A DNA stretch of 64,000 bases from Calditrichales bacterium (GTDB taxonomy: Bacteria; Calditrichota; Calditrichia; Calditrichales; J004): NCBI GenBank assembly GCA_015493745.1, contig WGCN01000029.1, positions 5,137-69,136 of the forward strand, read 5' to 3'. How positions within the stretch are numbered: position 1 is the first letter of the stretch; every line of letters starts with the position of its first letter. Made by a program: the position numbers and the translations under genes. Shown piece by piece: positions 1,585-21,600 of this stretch. The notes under the pieces were generated by a model. That model worked only from the letters and a program-made list of their open reading frames with translations, did no database searches and was not told the DNA's origin.

Positions 1585-1628
1585 ATTAACCTCCTGTGAT
1601 AATGGATACTTTTGAACATCAACATCAT

Positions 1629-1644: not shown

Positions 1645-1721
1645 GAACCTGTTAACCGTTGCTCTCAGCGGGATAAGGAAAAGGTTATGCGATATTTAAA
1701 TACGAAATGTCATAAAAGACT

Positions 1722-1756
1722 ATGAAAAAAATGCATAGTAATGAAAAAAATGCATA
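1722..1756 (-). repeat. Two perfect 16-bp direct repeats (atgaaaaaaatgcata on the + strand) separated by gta; a candidate upstream activator site
   Basis: The copies at 1722..1737 and 1741..1756 are identical, giving a 19-bp period. Each contains the palindrome ATGCAT. They lie about 80-130 bp upstream of the sigma-54 element, in the 176-bp intergenic gap. Confidence 0.5.
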
Positions 1757-1760
1757 TGCT

Positions 1761-4069: not shown

Positions 4070-4070
4070 C

Positions 4071-5525: not shown

Positions 5526-5528
5526 AAT

Positions 5529-6506
5529 TTACGGCCCATAAGTAAAAAAGAGTGGAACGGAATAGCAGATGTTGCCGGAGTTGTCTACAATGCTGACACG
5601 CGCAAAGTTGTTTACCGCCGAAAGCAAATCCAAAACGGCGCTTTCGGAAATGGTTTTGCTGTTTGTGCCGGCGGGAAGGGCGGTGTAGCTCTTTATCAGA
5701 CGGAAACTGTTGTCGATAATGGAAAAGATTTCCAATTCAAAGGTATGGGAAAAGTCAAGATTGACGTTGTTCCATTTGAAAGTGATGGTTCCGCTCAGGT
5801 TGCTTTGCGGAGCGGGCTCGGTAAAAAACAGCTCCTGTTCGATAACCCGCGTGATCGTTACCGGTATCGTTTGCAGGGAATCTCCGTTTTGATTGAACAC
5901 GCTAAAGACAAAATGCATTTCCGGCAAAGTACCGGCGGTTATATCCGCATCGATATTTATGATGTTTTTATTGGTCAGAAAAATACCGCTCATCCCGTCC
6001 AGTACCTGCAAAGTGTCCCGGTAGGAGTTCTCCAGGATACTCAGCTCGACCCGGCGTATATCCGTTGGGCCGTCATCATCGCTCACTTCCAGCCGCGCCA
6101 GATATTCCGTGGATTTGTTGGTGTTATTGTATATGGAATGGAGATTTTGAGTATGTACCACCGGTTTGGCGTTTAACAACAAGGGATCGTTAAATCCTCC
6201 GCCCCTGACGGTGGCAGCGGCTTTAAAGTAGAGGTCGCTTAATGTTTGCACCTGGTAGTAATCGACTTTACCATGGGAAAAAAGAATTTCACCGTTGGCG
6301 TCGCTTACCCCGCTCAGACCCAGCTCCGGGGCAATCACCGTTACCGAGGATACCGGCAAGGTCGGGTTGCTTAAACGGCGTAACTGGAGGAGTTCGGATT
6401 GAAGCTGATAGTTTTGTGCGTCCGGATCCAGGGGATTCAAACGCGGGGCATCACAGCTTTGTGCCGTCAACAGTACGATGGTTGCAAAAAAAAGTATTTG
6501 TTTCAT
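5529..6506 (-). CDS. Hypothetical lipoprotein
   Basis: 325-aa ORF with a lipobox-like N-terminus (MKQILFFATIVLLTAQSCDAP). No other family motif recognised. 3-bp gap to the activator gene. Confidence 0.6.
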   Translation of the reverse strand: MKQILFFATIVLLTAQSCDAPRLNPLDPDAQNYQLQSELLQLRRLSNPTLPVSSVTVIAPELGLSGVSDANGEILFSHGKVDYYQVQTLSDLYFKAAATVRGGGFNDPLLLNAKPVVHTQNLHSIYNNTNKSTEYLARLEVSDDDGPTDIRRVELSILENSYRDTLQVLDGMSGIFLTNKNIINIDADITAGTLPEMHFVFSVFNQNGDSLQTIPVTITRVIEQELFFTEPAPQSNLSGTITFKWNNVNLDFSHTFELEIFSIIDNSFRLIKSYTALPAGTNSKTISESAVLDLLSAVNNFARVSIVDNSGNICYSVPLFFTYGP

Positions 6507-6548
6507 GGCCTTTGTTAGGTCTGTGGATCAACAGCTAATTTACAAAAA

Positions 6549-7613
6549 TTACAGCTTGTAATTCCATTCCTGTAAATAGGGTTCCCAATGCCGCTGTATT
6601 TTATCCACGGTCTCCCGGCTTAATGCCGGGTATTTGTTTTTTGTATAGCTTAAACCGTTCAGGTGTGTGCTTAAACCGGGCTTGAAGTCCTCGTAACCCG
6701 AAAGTCCGTGATATCGATATATCTTCTCCACGGTCTTAAGGGGTTCTTTGTCAAGTTCATCATAGGAAATCTCCAGTAATTTTTCCCCGGGGATAAGAGC
6801 GCGTTGTTCCAGATAGGCCGAGTGAATCTGCCTGTAACGTTCTATAATCCGGCCGGTGACGTCATAGTCCGGTTTTTGCAGGGAGGAACGGGCAATGGCC
6901 GTATCGTATAAGCGGATGGTGGAGTTAAACACCTCATAGGGATGACGGTGCAGGAAGATAAACCGGGCCGCGGGAAATATCTCATGGAGCTTTTTTATCC
7001 GGGCCGTATTGAGCGGAGACTTGGACAGAATCCGTTTCCCCGGGGTCATAAAGCGGATTTTATTAAAAAAGTGGATATAACTTTTACCCCAGTTCTCAAG
7101 CAGTTCCCGGTTACATGTTTCAAAAGTGGTATAGCGATCGTAATGTGTCTGTCTTTGAGGAAACAACCAGCCGACTATGGGAGAACGCAGGGTCAGTGCC
7201 GCCAGGGCAAACTCATCCTCCGCCGGAGAAAGAAGCGATACCTTTACGTTGTCCATCGATCGCTTTTTGGCGGTTCTTTCACGCAACAACGCATTATATT
7301 TTTGATGGATATGTAGAAAGGTATGGGGATTGTTTACCTGAAAGGTACGGGGAAAGGTGAATTGTTCATCCCGGCTCAGGAGGTTATGCAAAAAGGTGGT
7401 TCCACTGCGCCAATGGCCGATAATAAAAACAGGGGCATGCTCGCCGTTAACCGTTGTTTTTCCGGGATATATTTTCTTTTCCCGGGCCAGGAACCGGTGG
7501 TTTCTGACCGTCAGGGCACTTATCAGCGCCATCCGTGCCGGACGGGCCTTAAAGCGGTTCTCCTTTAGCAGCTTAAACCATTGTCCTGGTAAAAGCCCGA
7601 TAACACTATCCAT
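6549..7613 (-). CDS. Sulfotransferase family protein (tandem paralogue 1)
   Basis: PAPS 5'-phosphosulfate loop GHWRSGTTFLHNLL. SKSPLNTARIKKLHEIFPAARFIFLHRHPYEVFNS is the 3'-phosphate motif region. The longest ORF reaches 7643. The ATG at 7613..7611 is preferred for three reasons. It has an AGGGAG Shine-Dalgarno 5 nt upstream. It forms a TAATG overlap with the upstream paralogue's stop. It also makes the two paralogue N-termini nearly equal in length. Confidence 0.85.
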   Translation of the reverse strand: MDSVIGLLPGQWFKLLKENRFKARPARMALISALTVRNHRFLAREKKIYPGKTTVNGEHAPVFIIGHWRSGTTFLHNLLSRDEQFTFPRTFQVNNPHTFLHIHQKYNALLRERTAKKRSMDNVKVSLLSPAEDEFALAALTLRSPIVGWLFPQRQTHYDRYTTFETCNRELLENWGKSYIHFFNKIRFMTPGKRILSKSPLNTARIKKLHEIFPAARFIFLHRHPYEVFNSTIRLYDTAIARSSLQKPDYDVTGRIIERYRQIHSAYLEQRALIPGEKLLEISYDELDKEPLKTVEKIYRYHGLSGYEDFKPGLSTHLNGLSYTKNKYPALSRETVDKIQRHWEPYLQEWNYKL

Positions 7614-8710
7614 TAGTTCTCCCTGTTTAGAGGATAATTCCATTTATCAAAAGCAAAGGCCCATTCCCGGTTAATGCGCGATAGCCAGGGCTCGGCCACG
7701 GGGCTATATTTATTTTTCTTATAGCTTCCTATACTTTCAAGATGCGCTTCCAGCAAGGGCTTATAGGAGGCGTAGTCCTCAAAACCGAAATGCCGGAAAA
7801 TACGCTCGATCAGTTGGAGAGGCTGCCGGTCCAGCTCCTCATAACTGACATCCAAAAACTGATCCGCCGGTAAAAGGGCGCTCTCCGTAAAAAAATTCCG
7901 GTACATGTTGCGATAACGGCCGATAATTCCTTCACGCATTTGATTCGCATCGATGCTGTCGGTCATTTGCATGGGACGGACGGTTTTTTCATATAACTTA
8001 ACCGTTGAGTTGTATACATCATAGGGATTGCGATGGACATGGATAAAGCGTGCCCGCGGAAACATCTCCCGCAGTAGTTTTATGCGTGCCGTGTGTTGCG
8101 GAGACTTAAGGATAACCGGTTTGGGGTTCCGCGTGTTCAGCTTTTTCATGAAATAGAGAAACTGTTCCTTCCAGTAGTCGATTTCTTTTTGATCGACCTC
8201 TTCAAAGGTCAGATAGCGGTCATAAAAGGCCGTTGACTTAGGAAACACCCAGGCCAGCACGGGAGACATTAAAGACATTACCGCCAGGGCAAACTCATCC
8301 TCACCGGGATCGTTGAATTTGATCTTCATTTGATCCATGGGGCGTTTTTGTTCTCCGGCTTTGGCCATTTTTTCTTCCAGCATCGGGGCCGTGTAGAGAA
8401 ACGAGTGCGGGCTGTAGATGTCAAAAACCGTGGGAAAGGTAAATTGTTTCCCCAGGCTTAAAAGCTGATGCAGGTGTGAGGTACCGCTGCGCCAATGGCC
8501 CAAAACGAATACCGGTTGGGGATGGATGACCGCATTGCGGATTTTATCACCGTAGGCTTGCAACTCTTTTGCTTCATAACGGTCGTTACGGAAATAGGTG
8601 GTGATGGTGAGCTTAAGTGCCATCGCCAGCTTATCCGCCGGGATTTCCCGGAAATGGCGCCCGGTCAGTTTTAACCAGTTCTTTAGTTTTGTTCCGACAA
8701 GTATCTGCAT
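7613..8710 (-). CDS. Sulfotransferase family protein (tandem paralogue 2)
   Basis: GHWRSGTSHLHQLL PAPS loop; LKSPQHTARIKLLREMFPRARFIHVHRNPYDVYNS. Colinear with the 6549..7613 product over its full length, with clearly related sequence. Confidence 0.85.
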   Translation of the reverse strand: MQILVGTKLKNWLKLTGRHFREIPADKLAMALKLTITTYFRNDRYEAKELQAYGDKIRNAVIHPQPVFVLGHWRSGTSHLHQLLSLGKQFTFPTVFDIYSPHSFLYTAPMLEEKMAKAGEQKRPMDQMKIKFNDPGEDEFALAVMSLMSPVLAWVFPKSTAFYDRYLTFEEVDQKEIDYWKEQFLYFMKKLNTRNPKPVILKSPQHTARIKLLREMFPRARFIHVHRNPYDVYNSTVKLYEKTVRPMQMTDSIDANQMREGIIGRYRNMYRNFFTESALLPADQFLDVSYEELDRQPLQLIERIFRHFGFEDYASYKPLLEAHLESIGSYKKNKYSPVAEPWLSRINREWAFAFDKWNYPLNREN

Positions 8711-8725
8711 GGTTTTCTCTTCGGT

Positions 8726-9448
8726 TTATTGTGTTTGCCACAAGCGTAGCCGGGGGGCACGATGTTTTATGCAAAAGGCCCCGGCATAGGGCGGGGAAAC
8801 AGGCAGGGCCCGCAACAGCCAATCCCCGGCCTGATATCCCGGATGGCGGACATCAAGCAGACGGGCCTCTTGCCCCGGAGTCAGGGTGACGTCAAAAGAG
8901 TGCAGGGGCATGGAGAGACCGAGTCCCGCCGCCTTTATAAAAGCTTCCTTACGGGTCCAGGCATTGAAAAATCCTTCTTCCCGCTGTTCGTCATTCAAGG
9001 CCAGGAAAGCCTGCACTTCCTTGTTGGAAAAAAAACGCTCGGCAATTTTGACCGTGGTCGTTTCCTTGCGAAAGTGTTCAATATCCACTCCCACCGGTGC
9101 CAGGGGGCTGATGGCGACAAGTCCCTTCTTCCCGGAGTGGGAGACGTTAAAGAAAAAGGGAGAGCTCGCCCAATAGGGTTTTCCCTGTTTGTTATATTCA
9201 AACTCTATCCGTGCCGGGGCGAGGCCGCTAAAGCCTCCCAGCCGTTCCTTCAGATAACCGCGGGTAATGGTATAGGCCCGTCGGTCCCTCTCAAAATAAA
9301 AACGCGCGGCCCGCGCCTTCTCCTTATCGGAAAGCAGGGCTTCAAACCGCGACAGGGAGGGGTAATCCTCAAAATCCAGCAGCCAGATGAAAAGTTCATT
9401 ACCGGCCGGTTGCTCTCCTTTGTAGTGCTGCCACATTACGGGTTTCAC
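8726..9448 (-). CDS. Sfp-type 4'-phosphopantetheinyl transferase
   Basis: Motifs GKPYW, FNVSHSG, VGVDIE and FFNAWTRKEAFIKAAG. The ORF-track start is a GTG; an in-frame ATG lies 12 nt downstream at 9436. Confidence 0.9.
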   Translation of the reverse strand: MKPVMWQHYKGEQPAGNELFIWLLDFEDYPSLSRFEALLSDKEKARAARFYFERDRRAYTITRGYLKERLGGFSGLAPARIEFEYNKQGKPYWASSPFFFNVSHSGKKGLVAISPLAPVGVDIEHFRKETTTVKIAERFFSNKEVQAFLALNDEQREEGFFNAWTRKEAFIKAAGLGLSMPLHSFDVTLTPGQEARLLDVRHPGYQAGDWLLRALPVSPPYAGAFCIKHRAPRLRLWQTQ

Positions 9449-9454
9449 GGAAAG

Positions 9455-10222
9455 TTACAGGGCCATGACGGCGCTGAGATCACGCATGATCAGTTCCAGT
9501 ATTTGTGCCGTATGTTTTTGCAGAAAAAAATGACCTCCGGGAAACATGCGCACGGAAAAAGAGGCGGTGGTATAGCCCTGCCAGGCATCCAAATGTTCCC
9601 GGGGCGTGCTTTCATCTTCCAGACCGCCGAGAATGGTCATGGGGATATTCAACGGCGGACGGCTTTGATGCACATAGGTTTCCACCATCTTAAAATCGGC
9701 GCGGATGATAGGCAGCAGCAGTTCCATCAGCTCCTTGTGTTGCAAAATTTCCGGTGGCGTGCCTTCGAAGCTGCGTATCTTTTCCCAAAAATCCTCATCG
9801 TTTAATTGATGAATGGGTTCTTCCCGGTCATTGAGGTGCGGTGCGCTGCGTCCGGACAGGAAAAGGAACGCCGGTTCGTTGTTATAACGGGCGGCCAGAT
9901 GATGGCTGAGTTCATAAGCCAGCGTAGCTCCCATGCTGTGTCCGAAAAAAGCGTAAGGCCGGTCCAGTTCGCCTTGAATGTTCTCGGCAATCTGTTTTAC
10001 CAGATCGGGTAAATGGGTCACCAGCGGTTCCATCAGACGCTGTCCCCGTCCGGGAATCTCCAGAGCTATGGTCTCAACGCTTTCGGGAAGGAGGCGGCCC
10101 CATTCCCGGTAAGCGACACTGCTGCCCCCGGCAAAGGGCAGGCAGATCAATTTTAATTTGGAATTCCGTTTTATTACGCTCCTGACCAACCATGGATTTT
10201 GAGTGACGTGCATTGTTTTCAT
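9455..10222 (-). CDS. Type II (editing) thioesterase
   Basis: LICLPFAGGSSVAYREW, nucleophile elbow GHSMGA, and a C-terminal GGHFF. The ~255-aa size is typical of stand-alone NRPS/PKS TEII enzymes. Confidence 0.9.
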   Translation of the reverse strand: MKTMHVTQNPWLVRSVIKRNSKLKLICLPFAGGSSVAYREWGRLLPESVETIALEIPGRGQRLMEPLVTHLPDLVKQIAENIQGELDRPYAFFGHSMGATLAYELSHHLAARYNNEPAFLFLSGRSAPHLNDREEPIHQLNDEDFWEKIRSFEGTPPEILQHKELMELLLPIIRADFKMVETYVHQSRPPLNIPMTILGGLEDESTPREHLDAWQGYTTASFSVRMFPGGHFFLQKHTAQILELIMRDLSAVMAL

Positions 10223-10834
10223 CTACCTTGCTTCTTTTCGATTGTAATAATAATGTCCCCAGGCGGTGATGACCGAGCCCAGGCTGGCCAGGGCCATATC
10301 CTTATGGGCGTCCCACACGTCGCCCTGGGTACCCAGATAGGCCTGCCCCAGATCACCGCCAAAAAGTTCCGCCACCAGCCATTCGATCAATTCATAGATC
10401 ATGGAGGTGGACATGATCAGGGTGACCGGCAGCAGATATTTTATAAACCCCTTTAGATTGAAGCGCGCCACCAGCCACTCCATCACCGGGATGGTAAACA
10501 AAAAGCCGTAGAGGAAATGCACCAGCCGGTCAAATTGGTTGCGTCCGGGGCCTAAATCCCAGCCGAACAGAGTGGCGGCCCATTCCTTATACGGCACATT
10601 GGCATAGGTGTAGTGTGAGCCCAGTACATGGAAATAAAGGAATAGAAACAGCATCACATAGGAAGAAACAGAGAGCATCTTCCTTTGATGGCTGTACCAT
10701 AACACCGGTAAAAAAAGAATAACCAGTATATTTTCCAGCAGCCAGTCCTTGCGGTCGAAAGGGGCGACGGCCGCCCAGATCCATTCCAAAACAAATAGGA
10801 TTATCAGAAGGCGCAGTAATTTTTTTTCATCCAC
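10223..10834 (-). CDS. Small polytopic membrane protein (possibly YjdF/DUF2238-like)
   Basis: 203-aa ORF with several hydrophobic helices (LLRLLIILFVLEWIWAAVAP, ILVILFLPVLWY, VMLFLFLYFHVLG). GTG start. No gap to the TEII gene. The family name is from memory only. Confidence 0.5.
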   Translation of the reverse strand: MDEKKLLRLLIILFVLEWIWAAVAPFDRKDWLLENILVILFLPVLWYSHQRKMLSVSSYVMLFLFLYFHVLGSHYTYANVPYKEWAATLFGWDLGPGRNQFDRLVHFLYGFLFTIPVMEWLVARFNLKGFIKYLLPVTLIMSTSMIYELIEWLVAELFGGDLGQAYLGTQGDVWDAHKDMALASLGSVITAWGHYYYNRKEAR

Positions 10835-10942
10835 AATGCTGTCCCTGCCTTAAATAAACCGTGACTCGGGTTCTTAACCGGATTTCCCGACAATACAGGG
10901 GCATAACCGGTAAATAAATATCTGCTAAAACAGTCCTGGAAC

Positions 10943-10964
10943 CATCGCCGGTAAACCGGCGATG
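10943..10964 (-). terminator. Perfect 9-bp stem / 4-nt loop hairpin 7 nt downstream of the MbtH-like gene stop
   Basis: The + strand reads catcgccgg-taaa-ccggcgatg. On the transcript it is followed by GUUCC rather than a U tract, so terminator function is uncertain. Confidence 0.3.
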
Positions 10965-10971
10965 AAAAGGT

Positions 10972-11184
10972 CTAGTTTTGCGCGTCCATTTTTTCGCGCA
11001 GGCTTTTAGGCCGCATATCGGTCCAAACCTCTTTTACATAGTCCAGGCACTCCTGCTTGCTGCCGGATTTACCGGCATCTTTCCAACCCGGTGCGTTTTC
11101 ACGGTCGGCCGGCCAAATTGAGTATTGCTCTTCATCGTTAACAACAACCTTGTAAACGGTTTTGTCTTCGCGTTCTTCACTCAT
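10972..11184 (-). CDS. MbtH-like protein
   Basis: 70 aa carrying the signature [28 protein letters not shown]...[15 protein letters not shown]. 4-bp ATGA overlap with the MFS gene. Confidence 0.95.
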
Positions 11185-12596
11185 AATTGACTCCTTGTTT
11201 TTTTGAATTGTTCTTCAATGAAACGTTGTTTTTGTTCTAAAATCTGATCCTTGTGTACTTTTTTTATGGTGTAGCTAAATCCGGTATGGCCGCGTTGTTC
11301 CGGTGTTTGATAGGATATAAAACGCCGGAAATCGGAACTCAGCGATATCAGTATCACCGTGACCATGATGCCCCCGCCGGCGATGGAGTAGATTACGCTG
11401 ATGTCTTTGTCGAAAAAGTCATACATAAAGCCGCCCAGGGCCATACCCAGGGGAGCAATGGCTCCGGAAAGGGTGGTCAGCGTGCCGAAAACGCGTCCCC
11501 GTATCTTGCTGGGGGTGGTGATCTGCATCAGGGTAAAAATGCTGATGGTACTGAAACCATTCATCACGCCACCGATAAAAATAAGCCCCATGGCCTGCTC
11601 CGCCGTGCTGACCCGGCCCAGAAGAATGTATCCGATCGCTTCGAACATTAAAAAGAGAATCAGCAGAATCTTACGTCCCGCCCCGTGAACATTAAAGATG
11701 CTGTACAATACCGTTCCCGCCAGGGCGCCGAGACCGAAATCGATTAAAAGATAGCCGTACCACTGGTCGCCCAGCTTTAAAAAGTCGCGTACATAAAATA
11801 TGAGCAAAATGATAATCGGTGTGGAAAAAAAGGCGGTGGCGATGGAGAGATAAAGCAGCTTCTTCAAGCCTCGGTTTTGGCCGATATAGCGCAATCCTTC
11901 CCCGATGTCACTTTTAAAAGCTTTGAGATAGGCGGCAAACCCCCTGGCCTTTTCCGGCAGGCGCTGCGGGATTTTGATAAAGGACTCGCTGAGCGCCGAC
12001 AGCAGATAACTGATGCCGTTGGCAATGACCAGCACCGGCAAGCCTAAAATCATCAACAGTTGGCTGCCGAAAAAATAGCCGAAGAACTGGCTGATTTTTT
12101 CCGAAAACTTCCCCATGGAGTTGGCGCCGGCGATACGCTTCTCCGGTACCAGGTCGGGGATGGCGGCATTGATGGCCGGGGCAAAAAAAGCGCGCATGGT
12201 GGACATGGTCATCCCGGCAATAAAAACACCGGCGATGCTGTAAAGCGGCGGCATGTCCAGATAAAAGGTGGCGGCCAAAACCAGCATGGCCAGACCGCTG
12301 ATGATATCGGTACCGACTATGATGGCCTTGCGCGGAAAGCGGTCGGCCACGGCCCCGCCCAACGCACTCATCAGGATCATCGGCAGGGCCGTAACAGCGC
12401 CGAAAATACCCATGATGGTGCCCGAGTCGGTCATCTCCTTTAGCCATATCATGATGGCAATGTTGTAAACGCTGTTTCCCAGACGACTGACAAATTGCCC
12501 CTGAAACAGCATCAGGTAGTTTCGGTTAAACAACTTGTTGCTCGTAGACAGGCTGCGTGCTTCGTCTTTCAGAATCGCGGTTTGGTTTTGACTCAT
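11181..12596 (-). CDS. MFS transporter (DHA3/EntS-like putative exporter)
   Basis: 471 aa and about 12 hydrophobic helices. MFS-type loop [17 protein letters not shown]-terminal [22 protein letters not shown]. Confidence 0.85.
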
Positions 12597-12690: not shown

Positions 12691-15600
12691 TTAACCTGTT
12701 TTTTCCCGGAGCAGCCGGTCCATAGCCGCCGCCAGTTCCCGCACATCGGGATTTTGCAGCATCGCTATATGGTCTCCGGGCACATCAATGATGTCGACAC
12801 GGTCACACAACTCTCCCCAACGCAAATCCTCTTTATCACGGTTCTCTGCGGAACGAAACAGGTGGATGGCGCCCGGCAGCGGTTTATGTTTGTATTTGAG
12901 CCAGGCCTGAATCTGGGTTTCGTTTACCGTGATATAGCGCTGAAAGTCGGCCACCCGGACAAAACGGGGAACCACTTTTACCTTTTTGGCCTTTTTCAAT
13001 ACCACTTTAAACTGCTCATCCTCGGGCAGCTTGCGCAGGGCCGCGGTATCCACCTTGAAGTAACGCTTGAACATCTCCGTCAGCATTTCGGCCGTATCTT
13101 CGGGACTTTTATGTTCTACGAAGGGACCCTGATCCAGTTGCATCAACAGGGACACCTCATCTCCGCGTGCGCGGAGCTGCCGCGCCATTTCATAGGAGAT
13201 GATCACCCCCAGCGACCAGCTCCCCAGAATATAGGGGCCTTCGGGCTGTTCTTCCTTCAGGGCGCTGATATAGGCCTCGGCCATCTCCTCCACGGTTTTA
13301 TGCAAGGCGGTTTTGCCGTCCAGCCCCTGGGCCTGAATACCGTAAAAACGCAGACCCGTGGTCAGGCGCCCGGCCAGTTCCTGATAGTGGTGTACGGCCC
13401 CTCCGGAGGGGTGCACAAAAAAGATGGCCGGTTTTTTTGTATCGCCCTTGGCCAGCAGCATCAGTTTTACACCACTTTCTTCTTTGCTTTCTTCCGTCAG
13501 CAGGGCGGCCAGGTGTTCGATGGTCGGTTCCTTGAAAAAGTCGATCAGGGTGACGTCTTTTTTAAATTGCTTCTCAATGGCGTTCAGCAACTGCATGGCC
13601 ATCAGTGAGTGGCCGCCCAATTCAAAAAAGTTATGGCGCACACCGATTGGATTGATACCGAGAATGGTTTCCCAGATTTCGGCCAGGCGTGTTTCCATGG
13701 CATTGCGCGGGGCGATAAACTCGCTGCCGCTCTCTTCCGGTCGTATGGCGGCTTCGGGCAGGGCGCGGTAATCCACCTTGCCGTTGGGCGTCAACGGTAT
13801 CTGTTCGATGCCGGTAAAAACGGCGGGTATCATATAGTCCGGTAACTGTTCGCTCAGGGCCGATTTTAAAGCGGCCGCATCAGCTTTTTCCTTCCAGATG
13901 ACATAAGCGGCCAGATAGGACAGGCCGTTGTCATCGCGTTGCAGGCTTAAAACGGCATCCTTCACGGCGGGGTGCGCGCGCATCCGTGCTTCGATCTCAC
14001 CCGGCTCAATGCGGAAACCGCGCACTTTCAGCTGGCTGTCCGCCCGGCCCAGGAATTCCAGATGTCCGCTTTCCAGCCAGCGCACCTTGTCCCCGGTACG
14101 GTACATACGCGCGCCGGGTTTTCCGGAAAAGGGATCGGGCAGGAAACGCTCCGCCGTCAGAGCGGGGCGGTTCAGGTAACCGCGGGCCAGATTGGTTCCG
14201 GCCAGATAAAGCTCGCCCGGAATACCGGTAGGGCTCAGGTTCATATTTTCATCCAGAACATAGAGCCGCACATTGCCCAGGGCGGTGCCGATGGGAATGG
14301 TGGCCCGGCTGTCGGCGTCGCGTACCTCATAGCGGCTGGCACATACGGTGTTTTCCGTCGGGCCGTAGGCGTTAAGCAGGCGGCATTTGGCTGACCAGTG
14401 ACGCGCCAGATCCGGAGCCAGGGCTTCACCGGCGGAGATAAGGGTATGCAGATCCGGCAGCGCTTCATCCTTGATTATGTTAAGCAGCGATGGTGGCAGG
14501 GTTACCGTGGAGATGCGGCTGTCACGCATCAGGTTGGTCAGACGGGTTGTGGATGTTTGCGTGGCCCTGTCCATCAGGTAGAGAGCCGCGCCGCTGACCA
14601 GCGTGGTAAATATTTCCGATACGGAGGCGTCGAAGCTGAAACTGGCAAACTGCAGACAGCGCCGTTCCGGAGTCAGTTGGAAGTCCTCGATCTGCCGCAG
14701 GGTCAGGTTGCACAAACCGCGGTGGGTAAGCATGGTCCCCTTGGGCCGGCCGGTGGATCCGCTGGTATAAATGACATAAGCCAGGTTATCCGGTTGATTG
14801 AGATAGATCGGATTTTCCGTCTTGTTGCCGTAGGTGCCGGGAAGGGCTTCGTCCAGCAAAATGAGCCGGGCGTCCAGGTCCCGGAAGCGATCCTTAAGCG
14901 AACGGGAAGTCAGTAGCCAGGGACTGTTGGCGTCCTTTAAGATGTAGGCGATACGTTCCAGCGGATAGTCCGGGTCCACGGGAACATAAACCCCGCCGGC
15001 CTTGATGACGGCCAGCAATCCCACCACCATCTCCATGGAACGTTCCACCGATATGGCCACCAGTTTTTCCGGCCCGACACCGCTCGCGCGCAGTAAATGG
15101 GCCAGGCGGTTGGCCTGGGCGTTCAACTCCCTGAATGTCAGGGAACGATCCTTAAAAACCACCGCCGTTTGATGGGGATAACGCAGTACCGTTTCTTCAA
15201 ACAGATGCTGGATCAGGGGCTGTCCGGGAGCGGGATGCTGCTCGCCCCGCCCGAGGGCGAGAACCTTTTCCCGTTCCTTTTCCGGCAAAAGGGAGAGCCG
15301 GAGCAGCGGACGGTCGTACTTTTCGGCCAGTATATCCAGAAGATAGGCAAAGCGTTCCTGCATGCGCCGGATGGTTTTTTCACGGAACAGATCGGTATTG
15401 TATTCAAACTCCACCATCAAGCCGTGCTCGGCCTCCATGGCAATCAGCGACAGATCGTATTTGGCGATTTTTTGTTCCGCTTCGATGGGACGTATGCGGC
15501 TGTCCTCCATGTCCACTTCACCGCTGGGGGTGTTCTGCAGGACAAACATCACCTGGAAAATGGGGGAGTGGCTCATATTTCTTTCCGGCTGAAGTATCTC

Positions 15601-18600
15601 CACCAGTTGTTCGAAGGGCAGATCCTGGTGACCGTAGGCATCCAGAGTATCCCGGCGGGTGCGGGTCAGAAGCTGGCGGAAGGTCAGTCGGTCGTCAAAG
15701 TCCGCGCGAAAGACCAGTGTGTTCACGAAGAAACCGATCAGCGCTTCCGTCTCCGAGCGGGTACGATTGGCAATGGGCGAACCGACCAATATCTCATCCT
15801 GCCCGCTGTAGTGGCGCAGAAAGGTTTGAAAGGCGGCCAAGAGGGTCATGAACAGGGTTACCCCTTCCCGCTGCCCAAAGGCTTTCAGCTTTTCCAGCGT
15901 CTCCTTTTCCACGGTGAAGGGAATGCTGTCGCCATTAAAGGTCTGTACGGCGGGGCGTTGGAAATCCAACGGCAGTTGCAGGGCCGGCGGGTTAAGGCCG
16001 ATGTGCCGTTTCCAATAGTCGATCTGTTTTTGCAGCACCTCATCCTTTAGCCAGGAGCGCTGCCAGACGGCATAATCGGCATACTGCAGGGGCAACGGCG
16101 GCAAGGGGTTTTCCCGGCCGCGCTCAAAGCTTTGATAGAGAATGGTGAACTCACGCATCAGGATGCCGACGCTCCAGCCGTCGGAAATAATGTGATGCAT
16201 GGTGAACAGCACCAGATGGTCATTGGGCGCTATGATGACTATTTTGGCGCGGAACAGCGGTCCCAGCTCCAGGTCAAAGGGCTCATTGGCTTCATCATTG
16301 ACCAGCCGCCGGGCCTCTTCCTCGCGGATATCCTCCGAGAGACCTGACAGGTCGATAACATCCACTTCGGTGATGGAGCGCGGATGAACATGCTGGTAGG
16401 GTTGTCCCTCTTCCACGTTAAAGGTGGTACGCAGCACTTCATGGCGCATGATCAGCGCCTCAACGGTTTTTTTGAAGGCCTCGATGTTCAGCTTGCCGCG
16501 GTGGCGGATGGAGGCCGGGATATTGTAAAAGGATTGATCCGGCGCCAGTTGATCGAGAAACCACAACCGTTGCTGGGCAAAGGAGAGCGGCAGCCGCCGG
16601 TCGCGCTCCACGGGCACCAGCGGAATGGACCGGCCGGCGCCCCCCTGGCGGGCGCTTTGCAGCACCAGAGCGGTGAAGGCGCTGATGGTCGGCGCCTCAA
16701 ACAACAGGCGCAGCTCCACTTCGGTTTCAAAACGATCGCGTACCCGGCTGACCAACTGCGTGGCCAGCAGCGAATGGCCGCCGATTTCGAAAAAGTTGTC
16801 ATGGATACTGATCTTTTCCTGTTTCAGTACCTCGCACCAAATGTCGGTCATCTTTTGCTCATCGTCGTTCCTCGGCGCCTGGTAGGGGCGGCGGGCGTCT
16901 GTTTCCGTCCATTGCGGTTCCGGCAGGGCGCGCTTATCCACTTTTCCGTTGGGCGTTAAGGGAAAGGACTGTAAATGCACATAGGCCGCCGGTTGCATGT
17001 AGTGGGGCAGGCGGCCGGCCATATGGGCGCGTAAGGCGGCGGCGTCAATCTTTTCCGGGGCGACGTAGTAGGCTGCCAGCTGTTGCTGATCACCGGCATT
17101 GCGCACCATGATCACGGCATCGGCTATACCGGGATAGTGGCTCAGTTGATGCTCAATCTCACCGGGCTCAATGCGAAAGCCGCGCAGCTTTAACTGTTCA
17201 TCCATGCGTCCTAAAAATTCGAGTACGCCGCTGTCCAGCAGCCGCACGCGGTCACCGGTGCGGTACATACGTGCACCGGGAATCCCGCTGAAAGGTTCCG
17301 GGACAAAGCGTTCCGCCGTCAGCTCGGGTCGTTTAAAATATCCGCGGGTCAGGCTGTCCCCGGCCAGATACAGTTCGCCGGGCACGCCAAAGGGTTGGGG
17401 GTGCATGCGGCTGTCCAGCACATAAACCCGGACATTGTCAATGGGCGACCCGATGGGCACGGTAGACTGCTCCGCCGGCCGGTTGAGCACAAAGCGGGTG
17501 GCGCAGACGGTGTTTTCCGTGGGCCCATAGGCATTAATCAGGCGCCGGTTATTGCTCCGCCAGCGGTTGGCCACCTCCATCGGCAGCGCTTCCCCGGCGG
17601 AGACCAGGGTATCCAGTTCCGGAAAATCTTCCGGGTTGAGCAGGGCCGACACCGAAGGAGGCAGGGTGATCGTCGTGATATGCTCATCGCGCATCAGCTT
17701 AACCAGACCGGGGCCGGGCATCATCTCTTCCTTGTCGGCCAGCACCAGAGTGGCCCCGCTGACCAACGTGGTGAAAATTTCCGATACGGAGGCGTCAAAG
17801 CTAAAACTGGCAAATTGCAGGCAGCGCTTGTGTTCGTTAAGCAGAAAGTCCTTGATCTGAAAGGTGGTCAGGTTACACAGGCTGCGATGTTCCACCATGG
17901 TGCCCTTGGGCCTGCCCGTGGAGCCCGAGGTGTAGATCATATAGGCCATGTTGCGCGGATGGTTGACGGGGGCGGGATTGGTCTCCGGGAATTCCCCGTC
18001 GATTTCCTCGTCCAGAAAAAGGATGGTATCCGGCCCGGCCTCCCGCAACACACCCTTCATCCGCTGCATCGTTTTTTGCGTGGTCAGCAGCATGCCGATG
18101 CCGGCATCCTCCAGAATGTAGCGGATGCGCTCATCGGGATATTCGGGGTCTATGGGCACATATACGCCACCGGCCTTGAGCACGGCCAGCAGGGCGATAA
18201 CCATATGGGGTGAGCGCTCCAGGGAGATGCCGACCAGCTGCTCCGCTTTCAGTCCCGCCTTACGCAACTGATGGGCCCGGCGGTTGGCCGCCCGGTTTAA
18301 ATCGGCAAAAGTAAAGCTCTGATGTTTGTAACGCAGGGCCTCCTTTGTGGCAAAGGTTTCCGCGGTCTGCTCAAATAGCTGCTGGATGAGATGGTTATCG
18401 GGAAAGGGACGCGACTCCCCGGCAAGCAGACGGGCCTGACCGGCAAGGGCGGCCGCATCCATCAGACTCAGGGCGCCGATGGGTTGAGCGGGGTTTTGGG
18501 TCACCTGTTGCAATAACAGCTTAAAATGTTCCATTAGCCGCCGGGCCGTGGCTGCTTTAAAAAGATCGGTGTTGTATTCCAGTTGCGCCTTAAGGGTGGA

Positions 18601-21600
18601 ATCGCCCTCCAGCATGGAGAGGGTCAGGTCGAATTTGGATATCTGCTCGTCACTTTCAAACGCCTCGATGGTTAGCCGGTCGCTTTCCATGTTGGCCACC
18701 GGGGTGTTTTGCAACACGAACATCACCTGAAACAGGGGAGAGCGGCTCATGTCACGATCGCGGACCAGGGCGTCCACCAACTGCTCAAAGGGGATATCCT
18801 GATGGGCCTGCGCTTCAAGGCTGTTTTGGCGTACCTGCCGCAGCACATCCATAAAAGTCAAACGGTTGTCCATATCGGCGCGCATCACCAGGGTATTGAC
18901 GAAAAAGCCGATCAACGGTTCCGTTTCCCGGAAACGGCGGTTGGCCACGGGGGTGCCGGTGAAAAAGGTTTCCTGTCCGCTGTACTTGTACATCAGCGTG
19001 TTCCAGGCGGCCATTAATACCATGTACAGGGTAAAATTGTTTTCCAGGGCCAGAGCCTTAACCGCTTCCGTCAGCTTTTCATCCAGACTGAAATCCAGCA
19101 CGGCACCGTTAAAGGTTTGCATGGCCGGGCGGGCAAAGTCCGTGGGCAGTTGTAGCGGCGGCGGGTTGATGCCTATTTTGTTTTTCCAGTATGCAAGTTG
19201 CTGTTCCAGCACCTCGTCAACCAGCCAGCGGCGCTGCCAGATAGCGTAATCGGTATACTGCAGGGGCAGCGGCGGCAACGGAGCTTCTTCTCCGCGGGCA
19301 AAAGCCCGGTACAGGATGCTCACTTCGCGCATCAGCACCGAAGTGGACCAGCCGTCCGATATGATATGATGCATGTTGAGCATCAGCAGATGGCTTTGCT
19401 CCTCAAGGCGCACCACGGTCAGGCGTAGCAGCGGGCCCCGGTGCAGGTCAAAGGGCTTAACGGCCTCTGTGGCGGCAATCTGCCGGGCGCGCCGCAAGCG
19501 CTCCGCCGCTTCCATTTCGCGGATATCCATGAAATCAACGGCCGGTTTGAGCCGCTCATGTATAACCACAAAGGGTTTGCCCTGATCGCTGTCAAAAGTG
19601 CTGCGCAGGGTCTCATGACGCTCGACGATGGCTTCCAGGGTACGCCGCAGGGCTTCATGATCCAGGTGGCCCTTTAACACAAAAGCGGCGGGGATATTAT
19701 AGAGGGCGCTGCCGGGGTTGAGCTGATCCAGAAACCACAGGCGTTGCTGGGCGAAAGAGAGGGGCAGGGGCTCCTCGCGGGGCAGGGCCGTCAACGGCGG
19801 CAGGGCCGTCAGACCGCTTTGATCCAGTTGATCCAACTGAGCGGCCAGGCCTTCCAGCGTCGGACTTTCAAACAACAGGCGCAGGGGAGCTTCCAGGGAA
19901 AACTGTTCGCGGATGCGGGCCATCAGTTGTGTGGCCAACAGGGAATGGCCGCCCAGTTCGAAAAAATTATCCAGCCTGCCCACCTGATCCACCTGCAGCA
20001 GGGCCTCCCAGATTTCCGCCAGTTTTTGCTCGCTCTCCGTTTCCGGGGCGATGTATTTACGGGAAAGCGCGGAACGGTCCAACTCCGGCGCGGGCAGGGC
20101 CTGGCGATCCACTTTACCGTTGGGGGTGAGCGGAATGTTCTCCAGAGCCACATAGGCCGAAGGCTGCATATATTCGGGCAGGGCGCGGGCCAGGGCCTGG
20201 CGGATGGTTTCCGTTTGCGCCGTTTCATCGGCGGGAACCCAGTAGGCCACAATACGCTTGTCGCCGGGAACATCCTCGCGAACGATGGCCACCGCTTCCC
20301 TGACCGCTTCCTGTTCATTGAGCAGGGCTTCAATCTCACCCAGTTCGATACGGTACCCGCGAACTTTAACCTGATCATCCGCGCGGCCCAAAAATATCAA
20401 CTGTCCGTTATTGAGATAGCGAACGATATCGCCGGTTTTATACATGCGGCTGCCGGGCCGGCCAAAGGGATCGGGTAAAAAACGCTCGGCGGTAAGCGCC
20501 GGACGCAAATGATAACCGCGGGCCACACCCGCCCCCCCGATATAGAGCTCGCCGGGAACACCGTGGGGAACCGGTTGCAGACGGCTGTCCAAAACATAAA
20601 CCGGCGTGCCGGGGATGGAACGGCCGATGGGCACGGAACCCTGGCCCTGCCAGCCGCGCGCGTCAAAAACCACGCAGCCCACCACCGTTTCCGTGGGGCC
20701 GTATTCGTTAAACAGATGGGTATCCGCGGCCTGTTGTTGCCAAAAGGCGATCTGGTCGGCGCTCAGGTTTTCCCCGCCGATCACAAAAGCGCGGGTCAGC
20801 GAGGCGGCCTGATCCGCGGGAATCTGATGCGCCAGCAGATCGAGGTGGGCCGGGGTGATCTTGACGATATTAAAATCCTTGTAGCGCAACAGGGCCCCGG
20901 CCAATGCTTCCAGATCGTTTCCGGCGGAGGCCAGGGTGATGGTTTGCCCGTTTATCAAAGGGGTGTATACGGCGGTCACCGTGGCGTCAAAGGCCAGGGT
21001 GGCATGCACCAGGGAACCGCGTCCCTCCCCAAGGGGATAGCCCTGCGCCGTCCAGCTCAGATAGTGCATCAGACCGGCGTGCGTAATCAGTGTGCCCTTG
21101 GGCTTACCGGTGGAGCCGGAGGTGTAAATCATATAAGCCAGTTGTTGCGGCTCCGGGGATGGGCGCGGATTTTCAACGGACTCGGCGGCCAGTTCATCCC
21201 CGCCGATGGTAACCTCTATACGGGGCACGGATACGGTCAGCCCCTCCAAAACCCCGGCTGTGGGCTGATGATGCAGGAGCAGGGCCAGGTTGGCGTCATG
21301 CACCATATAGGTGATGCGTTCCGCGGGATAGGCCGGGTCTATGGGCACATAGGCGGCGCCGCTTTTAAGGATGGCGAACAGGGCTATGATCATTTCCGGG
21401 CTGCGCTGGAAACAGAGACCGACGCGTTGCTCGGGGCCCAGGCCTTTTTTAATCAACAGATGGGCCAGGCGGTTGATCTCTTCGTTAAATTGACGGTAGC
21501 TGTAACGCGCGTCATCCTGTTCCAGAGCGGTTTTTTCAGCGGAGACGTCAGCCTGATGTTCCAGCAGGCGCACCACATTGTCGAAAGGCGGTTGCGGCGC

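What the first reader, a model, noticed from the sequence alone, without database searches (positions are those of the whole stretch)
6549..8710. Tandem paralogous sulfotransferase genes in the tailoring operon, giving four ST catalytic units in one cluster
Two adjacent genes of ~355-365 aa both carry GHWRSGT(T/S) PAPS loops and are colinear throughout. They sit in a tightly packed run with the membrane protein, TEII and PPTase genes (gaps of 0, 6 and 15 bp). Together with the third free ST (46999..47946) and the embedded ST domain, the cluster has four sulfotransferase units. The predicted peptide offers four Ser, two Tyr and one 3-hydroxyacyl hydroxyl as candidate acceptors. The ST duplication parallels the near-duplicate Tyr-Tyr modules, so one ST per Tyr is a tempting hypothesis, but it is unproven. 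No PAPS-synthesis genes (ATP sulfurylase, APS kinase) and no sulfatase are visible in this window.
Basis: partly seen in the sequence, partly recalled or inferred. Interest (0 to 1): 0.62.

Follow-up and report, generated by a model that had tools for sequence, protein, structure and literature searches.

The report
Paired sulfotransferases tailoring a Calditrichota lipopeptide
Two adjacent, intact sulfotransferase genes sit at the end of a large lipopeptide-synthesis gene cluster from an uncultured marine bacterium; comparing related clusters suggests, without proving it, that each enzyme adds sulfate to one of the peptide's two C-terminal tyrosines.

Summary
Window 7613-8710 (ST-A, 365 aa) and 6549-7613 (ST-B, 354 aa from the likely start) on the minus strand are colinear paralogues (40% identity, E 1e-92). 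Both match Pfam Sulfotransfer_3 (E ~1e-35) and keep every residue that is invariant in a 78-member family alignment. ST-A models at pLDDT 96 and is closest in structure to the mycobacterial sulfotransferases Stf1 and Stf9.

The cluster does hold four sulfotransferase (ST) units, from three different lineages:
- ST-A and ST-B (Stf-like);
- a free 315-aa ST (46999-47946) from a tiny family;
- a CurM-type domain embedded after the Ser2 carrier domain.

The pair is an old duplication. Both copies persist across Calditrichota relatives whose upstream copy is 40-84% identical to ST-A, and in two of those relatives they are not adjacent.

Across 19 related NRPS clusters, the number of Stf-like STs follows the number of tyrosine-type C-terminal modules. 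All 7 two-ST loci have two such modules. Of the 12 one-ST loci, 8 have one and 4 have two. One Caldithrix relative lacks both ST-A and the penultimate Tyr module. This supports "one ST per Tyr", but the loci are related by descent and nothing has been tested biochemically. No characterised product or family member was found in the searchable literature. Interest is moderate: a new variant of a known kind of tailoring.

The parts
7613..8710 (-). ST-A, a 365-aa Stf1/Stf9-like PAPS-type sulfotransferase (the derived paralogue)
   Evidence: PF13469 E 6e-35. 100% identical to P0001, named 'sulfotransferase [Caldithrix abyssi]'. AF2 model pLDDT 96. Foldseek top hits Stf1 2zq5 and Stf9 2z6v. Orthologous clade has 63% bootstrap support.
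6549..7613 (-). ST-B, a 354-aa paralogue (the ORF extends to 7643, but the likely start is ATG 7613-7611, overlapping the ST-A stop as TAATG)
   Evidence: PF13469 E 4e-36. 40% identity to ST-A, with the alignment starting at Met11 of the long ORF. RBS-like AGGGAG before that ATG. Closest to the single STs of one-ST clusters.
8477..8500 (-). ST-A 5'-phosphosulfate-binding loop GHWRSGTS (aa 71-78)
   Evidence: Invariant G71 H72 W73 R74 G76 T77 in the 78-sequence alignment A2; coordinates.
7395..7418 (-). ST-B 5'-phosphosulfate-binding loop GHWRSGTT (aa 66-73)
8006..8032 (-). ST-A 3'-phosphate-binding motif R227-x7-S235 (RNPYDVYNS)
   Evidence: R227, P229 and S235 are invariant in A2 and in the four-unit alignment A1. 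Coordinates computed from the residue numbers.
6921..6947 (-). ST-B 3'-phosphate-binding motif (RHPYEVFNS)
   Evidence: Aligned to the ST-A motif. Coordinates computed from the residue numbers.
8285..8308 (-). ST-A PGEDEFAL motif with invariant E137 and E139, candidate catalytic base (the equivalent in ST-B is PAEDEFAL at 7203-7226)
   Evidence: Invariant in A2; coordinates. The role as base is inferred, not tested.
8726..9448 (-). Sfp-type phosphopantetheinyl transferase, 15 bp upstream of ST-A
   Evidence: PF01648 and PF22624.
9455..10222 (-). Type II thioesterase
   Evidence: PF00975 E 2.5e-50.
10223..10834 (-). DUF2238 membrane protein (absent from several related clusters)
   Evidence: PF09997. 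Absent in L004, L005 and L007.
10972..11184 (-).
   Evidence: ORF. Homologous genes annotated PF03621 in L001, L003 and L004.
11181..12596 (-). MFS_3 transporter
   Evidence: PF05977 and PF07690.
16633..19797 (-). Module 12 of the final NRPS (C-A-T), A-domain code DASTVAAVC (Tyr); proposed acceptor residue for ST-A
   Evidence: Motifs, code. This module is absent from the visible part of one-ST locus L050. Boundaries are approximate.
13462..16632 (-). Module 13 (C-A-T), code DASTIAAVC (Tyr); proposed acceptor residue for ST-B
   Evidence: Position conserved as Tyr or as DAETIAGVC/DADTTAGVC variants in relatives.
12754..13425 (-). Terminal thioesterase domain
   Evidence: PF00975 at aa 4275-4498.
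46999..47946 (-). ST3, a free 315-aa sulfotransferase of a separate, very small family, lying between NRPS genes
   Evidence: PF13469 27.7 bits and PF00685. Only 12 homologues found. Same position after the ST-containing NRPS in L170.
52971..53618 (-). CurM/OLS-type sulfotransferase domain embedded in NRPS module 2 (C-A(Ser)-T-ST)
   Evidence: PF13469 E 7e-26. E 3.5e-65 to CurM ST 4gbm. Domain order. Conserved in L170.
5529..6506 (-). 325-aa protein with no family match; its N-terminus looks like a signal peptide followed by Cys (..LLTAQSC, read by eye). Follows ST-B after 42 bp and is syntenic in all Calditrichota-type relatives
   Evidence: No Pfam or NCBIfam hit. Synteny. Whether it belongs to the cluster is not settled.

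Best explanation
ST-A and ST-B are two catalytically competent, PAPS-dependent O-sulfotransferases of the mycobacterial Stf1/Stf9-like branch of the Sulfotransfer_3 family. They were recruited as dedicated tailoring enzymes of a PKS-NRPS lipotridecapeptide in a Calditrichota bacterium.

Predicted product: 3-hydroxyacyl-X-Ser-D-Ser-Ser-Phe-Ser-D-Gln-X-Phe-Orn-Asn-Tyr-Tyr.

They are old paralogues with separate jobs. The ST-B type is the ancestral copy found in single-ST clusters of several phyla. ST-A is a later duplicate confined to the Calditrichota-type cluster.

The most likely division of labour is regiospecific O-sulfation of the two C-terminal tyrosine phenols: ST-A on Tyr12 and ST-B on Tyr13. 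The N-terminal serines would be handled by the other two units, the in-line CurM-type domain on carrier-bound Ser2 and the small free ST3.

Shown: the genes, family membership, intact cofactor-binding motifs, the fold of ST-A, conserved linkage to the NRPS, and the co-variation of ST number with Tyr modules.

Inferred: PAPS as donor, the peptide as acceptor, tyrosine as the site, the ST-to-residue assignment, and the timing (on the carrier or after release, which is unknown).
For: Functional sulfotransferases:
- Pfam E ~1e-35 for both.
- Both keep all 19 invariant positions of the 78-sequence family alignment. These include the GHWRSGT loop, R123, D126, E137, E139, S203, P204, T207 and the R227-x7-S235 motif.
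- ST-A AF2 model pLDDT 96, pTM 0.93.
- Best structural matches are Stf1 2zq5 (E 1e-11, TM 0.67) and Stf9 2z6v (TM 0.69), followed by OLS/CurM STs and tyrosylprotein STs. Sequence hits to the same entries.

Cluster-dedicated:
- 15-bp gap to the PPTase gene and a 1-nt overlap between the two STs.
- The run NRPS(TE)-MFS-MbtH-TEII-PPTase-ST-ST recurs in relatives whose upstream ST is 84%, 61%, 54%, 46%, 45%, 44% and 42% identical to ST-A.
- STs of the same family sit in the same MFS/MbtH/TEII/PPTase cassette in NRPS clusters of Cytophagia, Melioribacteraceae, Anaerolineae and Blastocatellia MAGs.

Separate, old functions:
- ST-A and ST-B are 40% identical and no closer to each other than to STs of other genomes.
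- Upstream copies form one clade (63% bootstrap).
- Downstream copies diverge faster (74/51/43% identity against 84/61/54% in the same relatives).

Tyrosine link:
- All 7 two-ST loci with both terminal modules visible end in two aromatic-type modules: DASTVAAVC (DASTIAAVC in L091), followed by DASTxAAVC, DAETIAGVC, DAETIAGVA or DADTTAGVC.
- The one-ST Caldithrix locus L050 ends Asn-(DAETIAGVC)-TE. It therefore lacks the DASTVAAVC module, and its lone ST is of the ST-B type (47-51% to downstream copies against 43-45% to upstream copies).
- Contig Ga0675948_0000250 (L170 and L172) keeps Ser2-ST domain-Ser3 and ST3. It has non-Ser codes at positions 4 and 6, one Tyr module near the end, and exactly one Stf-like ST.
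- 8 of 12 one-ST loci show a single Tyr-like code in the visible modules. One-sided Fisher test 0.0065 by locus.
Against: - No biochemical or metabolite data exist. Nothing on this cluster or ST subfamily was found in the searchable literature.
- The co-variation is confounded by common descent. All two-ST clusters belong to one lineage, so the independent events are few: the origin of ST-A and probably one loss in L050.
- Four one-ST loci (L038, L103, L157 and L024) show two Tyr-like codes.
- Only the last 2-3 modules and 10 kb on each side were visible in relatives, so extra STs or Tyr modules elsewhere cannot be excluded.
- The ST-B-type group is not resolved in the tree (bootstraps 3-24%).
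- The only functional label found for this branch (Stf3, sulfating an aliphatic hydroxyl) comes from JGI names on homologues and from my own recollection, and it concerns an aliphatic acceptor. No phenol-sulfating member is known to me.
- Most family members in genomes are not NRPS-linked (about 69 of the 80 best loci).
- A-domain codes were read by aligning to a GrsA fragment written from memory. The residue calls also come from recalled reference codes.
- No PAPS-synthesis genes lie in the window.
Confidence: 0.5

Rival explanations
1. ST-A and ST-B tailor the same lipopeptide but sulfate aliphatic hydroxyls (Ser side chains or the 3-hydroxyacyl group) rather than tyrosines. The count of four ST units against four Ser modules would then be the real correspondence.
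For: - Four Ser codes and four ST units in the window.
- Some homologues carry the JGI name 'omega-hydroxy-beta-dihydromenaquinone-9 sulfotransferase' (Stf3), an aliphatic-alcohol sulfotransferase.
- CurM and OLS STs, which act on beta-hydroxyls, are the next structural matches.
Against: - In contig Ga0675948_0000250, positions 4 and 6 are not Ser. ST3 and the embedded ST remain, and the Stf-like ST number drops to one together with the Tyr number.
- No Ser code was seen among the visible C-terminal modules of any ST-linked NRPS, whereas a Tyr-like code was seen in nearly all.
- L050 lost ST-A together with a Tyr module, not visibly with a Ser module.
Confidence: 0.22
2. The two sulfotransferases act on a substrate unrelated to the peptide, such as an envelope glycolipid, polysaccharide or quinone. 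They would lie beside the NRPS only through conserved chromosomal synteny with the downstream sigma-54 activator and kinase genes.
For: - Most family members in Planctomycetota, Verrucomicrobiota and Rhodobacterales are not next to NRPS genes.
- GC3 of ST-A and ST-B (0.55-0.58) matches the flanking genes rather than the NRPS genes (0.64-0.70).
- The downstream genes are syntenic with the STs in all Calditrichota-type loci.
Against: - Same-family STs are embedded in the NRPS accessory cassette in at least five phylum-level groups that lack the downstream activator/kinase set.
- Their position inside the cassette varies: after the NRPS, between MbtH and TEII, or after the PPTase. They stay within it in every case.
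- The gap to the PPTase gene is 15 bp.
Confidence: 0.1
3. Only one of the pair is catalytic. The other is a degenerate or regulatory partner, or the two work as an obligate heterodimer on a single site.
For: ST-B-type copies evolve faster than ST-A-type copies (74/51/43% against 84/61/54% identity in the same relatives). The genes overlap by one base, which suggests coupled translation.
Against: - Both retain every invariant residue of the family.
- The two genes are separated by TEII and PPTase in L004 and L007.
- Clusters with a single ST exist.
Confidence: 0.05

Closest known systems
Mycobacterial sulfotransferases Stf1 (M. tuberculosis, PDB 2zq5) and Stf9 (M. avium, PDB 2z6v), with their paralogue Stf3 (sulfomenaquinone synthesis)
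   Same: Closest in sequence and structure: E 9e-10 and 5e-8 by sequence, TM 0.67-0.69 over essentially the full length, including the N-terminal part. Similar size (365 and 392 residues in the PDB chains). Same cofactor motifs. Some homologues of ST-A are named Stf3 by JGI.
   Different: Only 18-19% identity. The context here is an NRPS cassette rather than mycobacterial lipid or quinone genes. The substrates of Stf1 and Stf9 are, to my knowledge, unknown. Stf3 sulfates an aliphatic terminal hydroxyl (my own knowledge, not tested here).
Teg12/Teg13/Teg14 and StaL, tailoring sulfotransferases of glycopeptide antibiotic clusters (from my own knowledge)
   Same: Functional analogy: several paralogous PAPS-dependent STs encoded side by side in one NRPS cluster, each sulfating a different phenolic hydroxyl of the finished peptide.
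   Different: As I recall, those enzymes are shorter, cytosolic-type Sulfotransfer_1 proteins. ST-A and ST-B score best with Sulfotransfer_3. No such chain is named among the PDB sequence hits at E<=1 or among the 50 Foldseek matches listed. This is analogy, not membership.
CurM / OLS 'activating' sulfotransferase domains (PDB 4gbm, 4gox)
   Same: Third and fourth best structural matches to ST-A and weak sequence matches (E 3e-4 to 9e-3). The embedded domain of this same cluster is a true member (E 3.5e-65).
   Different: ST-A and ST-B are free-standing, about 80 residues longer, and only 16-17% identical. No decarboxylating TE partner is implied.
Sulfotransferase domain of the Planktothrix cyanopeptolin synthetase (oci) and the stand-alone SulN of sulfazecin biosynthesis
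   Same: Precedents for sulfation built into, or acting alongside, an NRPS assembly line (PMC2533009; PMC11298585).
   Different: The oci domain goes with a glyceric-acid loading domain at the N-terminal side chain (PMC2533009). SulN belongs to the sulfazecin monobactam pathway, whose beta-lactam derives from diaminopropionate (PMC11298585). Neither was compared with ST-A or ST-B by sequence here.
Tyrosylprotein sulfotransferases (TPST1/2, tick TPST; bacterial RaxST from my own knowledge)
   Same: Sulfotransfer_3-type enzymes that sulfate peptide tyrosines. Detected as structural neighbours (E ~1e-5, TM 0.42-0.46), with one marginal sequence hit for ST-B (E 0.07).
   Different: Much weaker similarity than to Stf1 and Stf9. 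They act on ribosomal proteins or peptides. No shared acceptor-site motif was examined.

Membership tests
PAPS-dependent sulfotransferase superfamily, Pfam Sulfotransfer_3 (PF13469) | Profile match above the curated gathering score | tested here: met
   ST-A 121.8 bits and ST-B 125.7 bits against a cut-off of 27.
PAPS-dependent sulfotransferase superfamily, Pfam Sulfotransfer_3 (PF13469) | 5'-phosphosulfate-binding loop (xRSGT/S) | tested here: met
   GHWRSGTS and GHWRSGTT; invariant in 78 family members.
PAPS-dependent sulfotransferase superfamily, Pfam Sulfotransfer_3 (PF13469) | 3'-phosphate-binding Arg-x7-Ser motif | tested here: met
   R227...S235 in ST-A and the aligned RHPYEVFNS in ST-B; invariant.
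PAPS-dependent sulfotransferase superfamily, Pfam Sulfotransfer_3 (PF13469) | Sulfotransferase fold | tested here: met
   ST-A model pLDDT 96. All 50 Foldseek PDB matches listed are sulfotransferases or the sulfotransferase-like retinol dehydratase. ST-B was not modelled, but it is colinear with ST-A at 40% identity.
PAPS-dependent sulfotransferase superfamily, Pfam Sulfotransfer_3 (PF13469) | Sulfuryl transfer from PAPS to an acceptor | not testable with these tools
   Needs an enzyme assay.
Mycobacterial Stf1/Stf9-type sulfotransferases | Significant full-length sequence and structural similarity to Stf1 and Stf9 | tested here: met
   phmmer E 9e-10 and 5e-8 for ST-A, 1e-6 and 7e-5 for ST-B. 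Foldseek E 1e-11 and 2e-10, TM 0.67-0.69, 375-405 aligned columns.
Stf3, omega-hydroxy-beta-dihydromenaquinone-9 sulfotransferase (EC 2.8.2.40) | Genomic association with menaquinone-modifying genes, and orthology to Rv2267c | tested here: not met
   The context is an NRPS accessory cassette in every Calditrichota-type locus. Orthology to Rv2267c itself was not tested. The name appears only as a JGI label on distant homologues.
Glycopeptide-type tailoring sulfotransferases (StaL, Teg12-14) | Sulfotransfer_1-type protein homologous to StaL and Teg12 | tested here: not met
   PF00685 is only the secondary hit (E 2e-11 and 9e-7). No such chain is named among the PDB sequence hits at E<=1 or in the listed Foldseek matches.
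CurM/OLS activating sulfotransferase domains | Close homology to CurM ST and location in a synthase next to a carrier domain | tested here: not met
   ST-A and ST-B: E 3e-4 to 9e-3 and free-standing. For contrast, the embedded domain at 52971-53618 does meet it (E 3.5e-65, directly after a T domain).
NRPS tailoring enzyme of this cluster | Conserved co-localisation with the synthetase genes across divergent genomes | tested here: met
   Linkage is kept in relatives down to about 40% ST identity and in five phylum-level groups.
NRPS tailoring enzyme of this cluster | Product carries the modification; loss of the gene removes it | not testable with these tools
   Needs product isolation, heterologous expression or knock-outs.

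The most novel reading that the evidence does not exclude
The Stf1/Stf9-like sulfotransferases linked to the MFS-MbtH-TEII-PPTase cassette would form a previously unrecognised, multi-phylum class of non-ribosomal-peptide tyrosine O-sulfotransferases. This Calditrichota cluster would then make a polysulfated lipopeptide in which three unrelated ST lineages divide the work. That would include in-line sulfation of carrier-bound Ser2 by a CurM-type domain, either kept as O-sulfoserine or used as a leaving group to form dehydroalanine.
Probability: 0.3. Interest if true: 0.65.

Novelty: new variant of a known kind. Interest (0 to 1): 0.45.

Why it matters
Sulfated non-ribosomal peptides are rare. 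To my knowledge, the tailoring sulfotransferases characterised so far come from other ST lineages, such as the glycopeptide enzymes.

If the Stf-like enzymes here are peptide tyrosine sulfotransferases, three things follow:
- A function would be suggested for a large, uncharacterised branch of the family to which the structurally solved but functionally unassigned Stf1 and Stf9 belong.
- A genome-mining marker for sulfated lipopeptides would become available in Calditrichota, Cytophagia, Ignavibacteriota-related (Melioribacteraceae), Anaerolineae and Acidobacteriota (Blastocatellia) MAGs.
- A pair of regiospecific enzymes would be available for peptide sulfation.

It would also point to a highly anionic lipopeptide as a conserved product of Calditrichota, from which I found no characterised natural product in the literature searches.

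Tried and rejected
- Recent tandem duplication: rejected. Identity is 40%, other genomes' STs are equally close, and both copies are conserved across relatives.
- 'Near-duplicate' Tyr modules: rejected (51% identity).
- One ST per Ser: disfavoured by L170/L172.
- Pseudogene or inactive copy: rejected, since all invariant residues are kept.
- L050 as a decaying cluster: the apparent stop in its MFS gene is just the natural stop.
- A second ST hidden in the L012 insertion: no, it is a 772-aa repeat protein with a hydrophobic N-terminus.
- NCBIfam gave no model for ST-A or ST-B.
- The promoter/terminator scan was not above shuffled expectation. It showed no minus-strand terminator between ST-B and the next gene.
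- The first bootstrap tree timed out. The replacement is NJ with Kimura distances only. The first unsupported NJ tree placed the two clades apart, and the deep order is unresolved.
- The Foldseek afdb50 library was unavailable.
- Literature searches for Caldithrix or Calditrichota NRPS sulfotransferases, sulfated NRPs, tyrosine O-sulfate lipopeptides and Stf1/Stf9 returned no study of this cluster or subfamily.


Full report
OBSERVATION

The two ORFs exist as described: 7613..8710(-) of 365 aa (ST-A) and 6549..7643(-) of 364 aa (ST-B). Both match Pfam Sulfotransfer_3 far above the gathering score (E 6e-35 and 4e-36) and Sulfotransfer_1 more weakly. They align end to end at 40% identity (E 1e-92).

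The alignment starts at Met11 of the longer ST-B ORF. That ATG (7613-7611) follows AGGGAG and overlaps the ST-A stop codon as TAATG. ST-B is therefore most likely 354 aa and translationally coupled to ST-A.

A 70-aa MbtH gene at 10972-11184(-) was overlooked.

THE CLUSTER

Every gene from the truncated PKS at the window's end down to 1761 lies on the minus strand with small gaps. Pfam and motif scans together with A-domain codes give this order:

| Element | Content |
|---|---|
| PKS | KS-AT-KR-ACP |
| NRPS 1 | C-A(DAENIGAIT)-T |
| NRPS 2 | C-A(Ser)-T-ST-C-A(Ser)-T-E |
| free ST3 | 315 aa |
| NRPS 3 | Ser, Phe |
| NRPS 4 | Ser, Gln/Glu-like, E |
| NRPS 5 | DASTIVGIG, Phe |
| NRPS 6 | Orn, Asn, Tyr(DASTVAAVC), Tyr(DASTIAAVC), TE |
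| accessory run | MFS, MbtH, DUF2238, TEII, PPTase, ST-A, ST-B |

The codes were read by alignment to a GrsA fragment that I wrote from memory. The residue calls also come from recalled reference codes, so they are indicative rather than definitive. The ORFs scanned against Pfam gave no PAPS-synthesis or sulfatase family.

FOUR ST UNITS, THREE LINEAGES

ST3 and the embedded domain are only 19% identical to ST-A, yet all four units keep the RSG(T/S) loop and the R-x7-S motif.
- The embedded domain is a close homologue of the CurM and OLS sulfotransferase domains (E 3.5e-65 and 1.9e-61). It sits directly after the carrier domain of the Ser2 module.
- ST3 scores barely above the Pfam cut-off and belongs to a tiny family of 12 proteins in the 5.8-billion-sequence search.
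- In a divergent relative (L170, ST3 58% identical), the order NRPS - NRPS with embedded ST - ST3 - NRPS is the same.

WHAT ST-A AND ST-B ARE

ST-A is 100% identical to a protein annotated as a sulfotransferase from a Caldithrix abyssi MAG. More than 1,100 homologues of about 360 aa were found.

In a 78-sequence alignment that includes both window proteins, 19 positions are invariant: G6, G71, H72, W73, R74, G76, T77, R123, D126, E137, E139, F156, S203, P204, T207, P218, R227, P229 and S235.

The AF2 model of ST-A is confident (pLDDT 96.1, pTM 0.93). Its best PDB matches are M. tuberculosis Stf1 and M. avium Stf9 (TM 0.67-0.69), then the OLS and CurM STs, then tyrosylprotein sulfotransferases. 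Sequence searches agree. NCBIfam has no model for them.

The family is widespread: at least 595 loci among GTDB species representatives, mostly Planctomycetota, Verrucomicrobiota and Rhodobacterales, plus some archaea. Most members are not NRPS-linked.

CONSERVATION OF THE PAIR

The run NRPS(TE)-MFS-MbtH-(DUF2238)-TEII-PPTase-ST-ST recurs in the following loci:

| Locus | Upstream ST identity to ST-A |
|---|---|
| L001 | 84% |
| L003 | 61% |
| L006 | 46% |
| L010 | 45% |
| L005 | 44% |
| L023 | 42% |

In each it is followed by a 325-aa protein with no family match, a GAF/sigma-54 activator, a Ser/Thr kinase with a PEGA domain, a 260-aa protein with no family match, and (where the locus reaches that far) a protein with a Por_Secre_tail hit.

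In L004 and L007 (54%) the ST-A orthologue lies between MbtH and TEII, so the two STs are not adjacent.

ST-A and ST-B are no more similar to each other than to STs of other genomes. Upstream copies form a clade with 63% bootstrap support. All Calditrichota-type STs together get 67%. The ST-B-type sequences are an unresolved grade. ST-B-type copies diverge faster (74/51/43% against 84/61/54% in the same relatives). The duplication is therefore ancient and both copies have been kept, which argues for distinct functions.

LINK TO THE PEPTIDE AND TO TYROSINE

Same-family STs sit in the MFS/MbtH/TEII/PPTase cassette of NRPS clusters in Cytophagia, Melioribacteraceae, Anaerolineae and Blastocatellia MAGs, usually as a single gene. 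These single STs, like the lone ST of the one-ST Caldithrix locus L050, resemble ST-B-type copies more than ST-A-type copies. ST-B therefore looks ancestral and ST-A derived.

I read the A-domain codes of the visible C-terminal modules in each locus.

| Group | Loci | C-terminal modules seen |
|---|---|---|
| Two-ST (7 loci) | window, L001, L003, L004/L007 | Tyr-Tyr |
| Two-ST | L005, L010 | DASTVAAVC, then DAETIAGVC or DADTTAGVC |
| Two-ST | L091 | DASTIAAVC, then DAETIAGVA |
| One-ST | L050 | Asn-(DAETIAGVC)-TE, so no DASTVAAVC module and no ST-A |
| One-ST | L170/L172 | one Tyr module near the end, one Stf-like ST |
| One-ST, single Tyr-like code | L011, L096, L098, L015, L008, L107 | one |
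| One-ST, exceptions | L038/L103/L157, L024 | two |

The contig holding L170 and L172 is informative. It keeps Ser2-ST domain-Ser3 and ST3, yet has non-Ser codes at positions 4 and 6, a single Tyr module near the end, and a single Stf-like ST.

The tally is 7 of 7 two-ST loci with two aromatic-type modules against 4 of 12 one-ST loci (one-sided Fisher 0.0065). The two-ST clusters are one lineage, however, so the independent events are few. Only the last 2-3 modules and 10 kb on each side were visible.

The pattern fits Stf-like STs following Tyr, and it does not fit them following Ser.

The Tyr12 and Tyr13 modules are each other's nearest relatives within the cluster, but only at 51% identity (A domains 55%). 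They are not near-duplicates.

MECHANISM PROPOSED

Two PAPS-dependent O-sulfotransferases each sulfate one C-terminal tyrosine phenol: ST-A on Tyr12 and ST-B on Tyr13. The embedded CurM-type domain acts on carrier-bound Ser2, and ST3 acts on another N-terminal hydroxyl.

Shown: genes, motifs, fold, linkage and co-variation.
Inferred: donor, acceptor, site, enzyme-to-residue assignment and timing.

I put about 0.8 on 'functional STs that tailor this peptide' and about 0.5 on the full statement including tyrosine.

Rivals are aliphatic (Ser or 3-hydroxyacyl) acceptors (0.22), an unrelated substrate (0.10), and an inactive or heterodimeric partner (0.05).

COMPARISON WITH WHAT IS KNOWN

By membership, ST-A and ST-B belong to Sulfotransfer_3 and within it to the Stf1/Stf9-like branch. 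They are not members of the CurM type, nor of the glycopeptide StaL/Teg type. They are not demonstrably Stf3 orthologues, because the context does not fit.

By analogy, the closest system is the trio Teg12, Teg13 and Teg14, which are paralogous STs in one glycopeptide cluster that each sulfate a different phenol (from my own knowledge).

Assembly-line sulfation has precedents in the oci cyanopeptolin ST domain (PMC2533009) and in SulN of sulfazecin (PMC11298585). No paper on this cluster or this ST subfamily was found.

VERDICT

It is a new variant of a known kind of tailoring. Interest is moderate (0.45), because the function rests on comparative inference alone.

Noticed in passing
window 52971-53618 (-), inside the NRPS gene 48150-57056: The embedded ST is a CurM/OLS-type 'activating' sulfotransferase domain (E 3.5e-65). 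It sits immediately after the carrier domain of a Ser module (C-A(Ser)-T-ST-C) and is conserved in relative L170. Carrier-bound serine has a beta-hydroxyl like CurM's substrate, so the domain could make O-sulfoserine or use sulfate as a leaving group to form dehydroalanine. In both loci the motif after the PAPS loop reads SPPELDLL, against SPPELHLL in CurM and OLS.
   Followed up: partly
window 10972-11184 (-): A 70-aa MbtH-like gene overlaps the MFS stop by 4 nt.
   Followed up: yes
window 1761-6506 (-): Four more co-directional, tightly packed genes follow ST-B: a 325-aa protein with no family match and a signal-peptide-plus-Cys N-terminus, a GAF/sigma-54 activator, a Ser/Thr kinase with a PEGA domain, and a 260-aa protein with no family match. 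No terminator-like site lies in the 42-bp gap. They are syntenic with the STs in all Calditrichota-type loci but absent from ST-linked NRPS clusters of other phyla, so they may be a lineage-specific regulatory or export part of the cluster.
   Followed up: partly
window 46999-47946 (-): ST3 belongs to a very small family: only 12 proteins at E<=1e-3 in the 5.8-billion-sequence search. The closer members sit between NRPS genes, while a 43%-identical member (L171) is not NRPS-linked. No sulfotransferase chain appears among its PDB sequence hits at E<=1.
   Followed up: partly
window 12691-63984 versus 679-12596 and 46999-47946: The NRPS and PKS genes have higher GC (0.55-0.58) and GC3 (0.64-0.70) than the three free ST genes (GC 0.48, GC3 0.55-0.59) and most other accessory and flanking genes. 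The MFS and DUF2238 genes approach the NRPS GC3 range. This may reflect different histories or amino-acid composition.
   Followed up: no
window 26286-32669 (-), first A domain of that NRPS (module 8): Code DASTIVGIG resembles tyrosine-type codes.
   Followed up: no
L005, L010, L023, L050, L091 (last NRPS module): In several relatives the final module has the unusual codes DAETIAGVC, DAETIAGVA or DADTTAGVC instead of DASTxAAVC. I could not assign a substrate. If the substrate is not tyrosine, the proposed ST-B acceptor differs in those clusters.
   Followed up: no
L012 2362-4680: One relative carries a 772-aa repeat protein with a hydrophobic N-terminus, inserted between its single ST and the 325-aa gene.
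   Followed up: no
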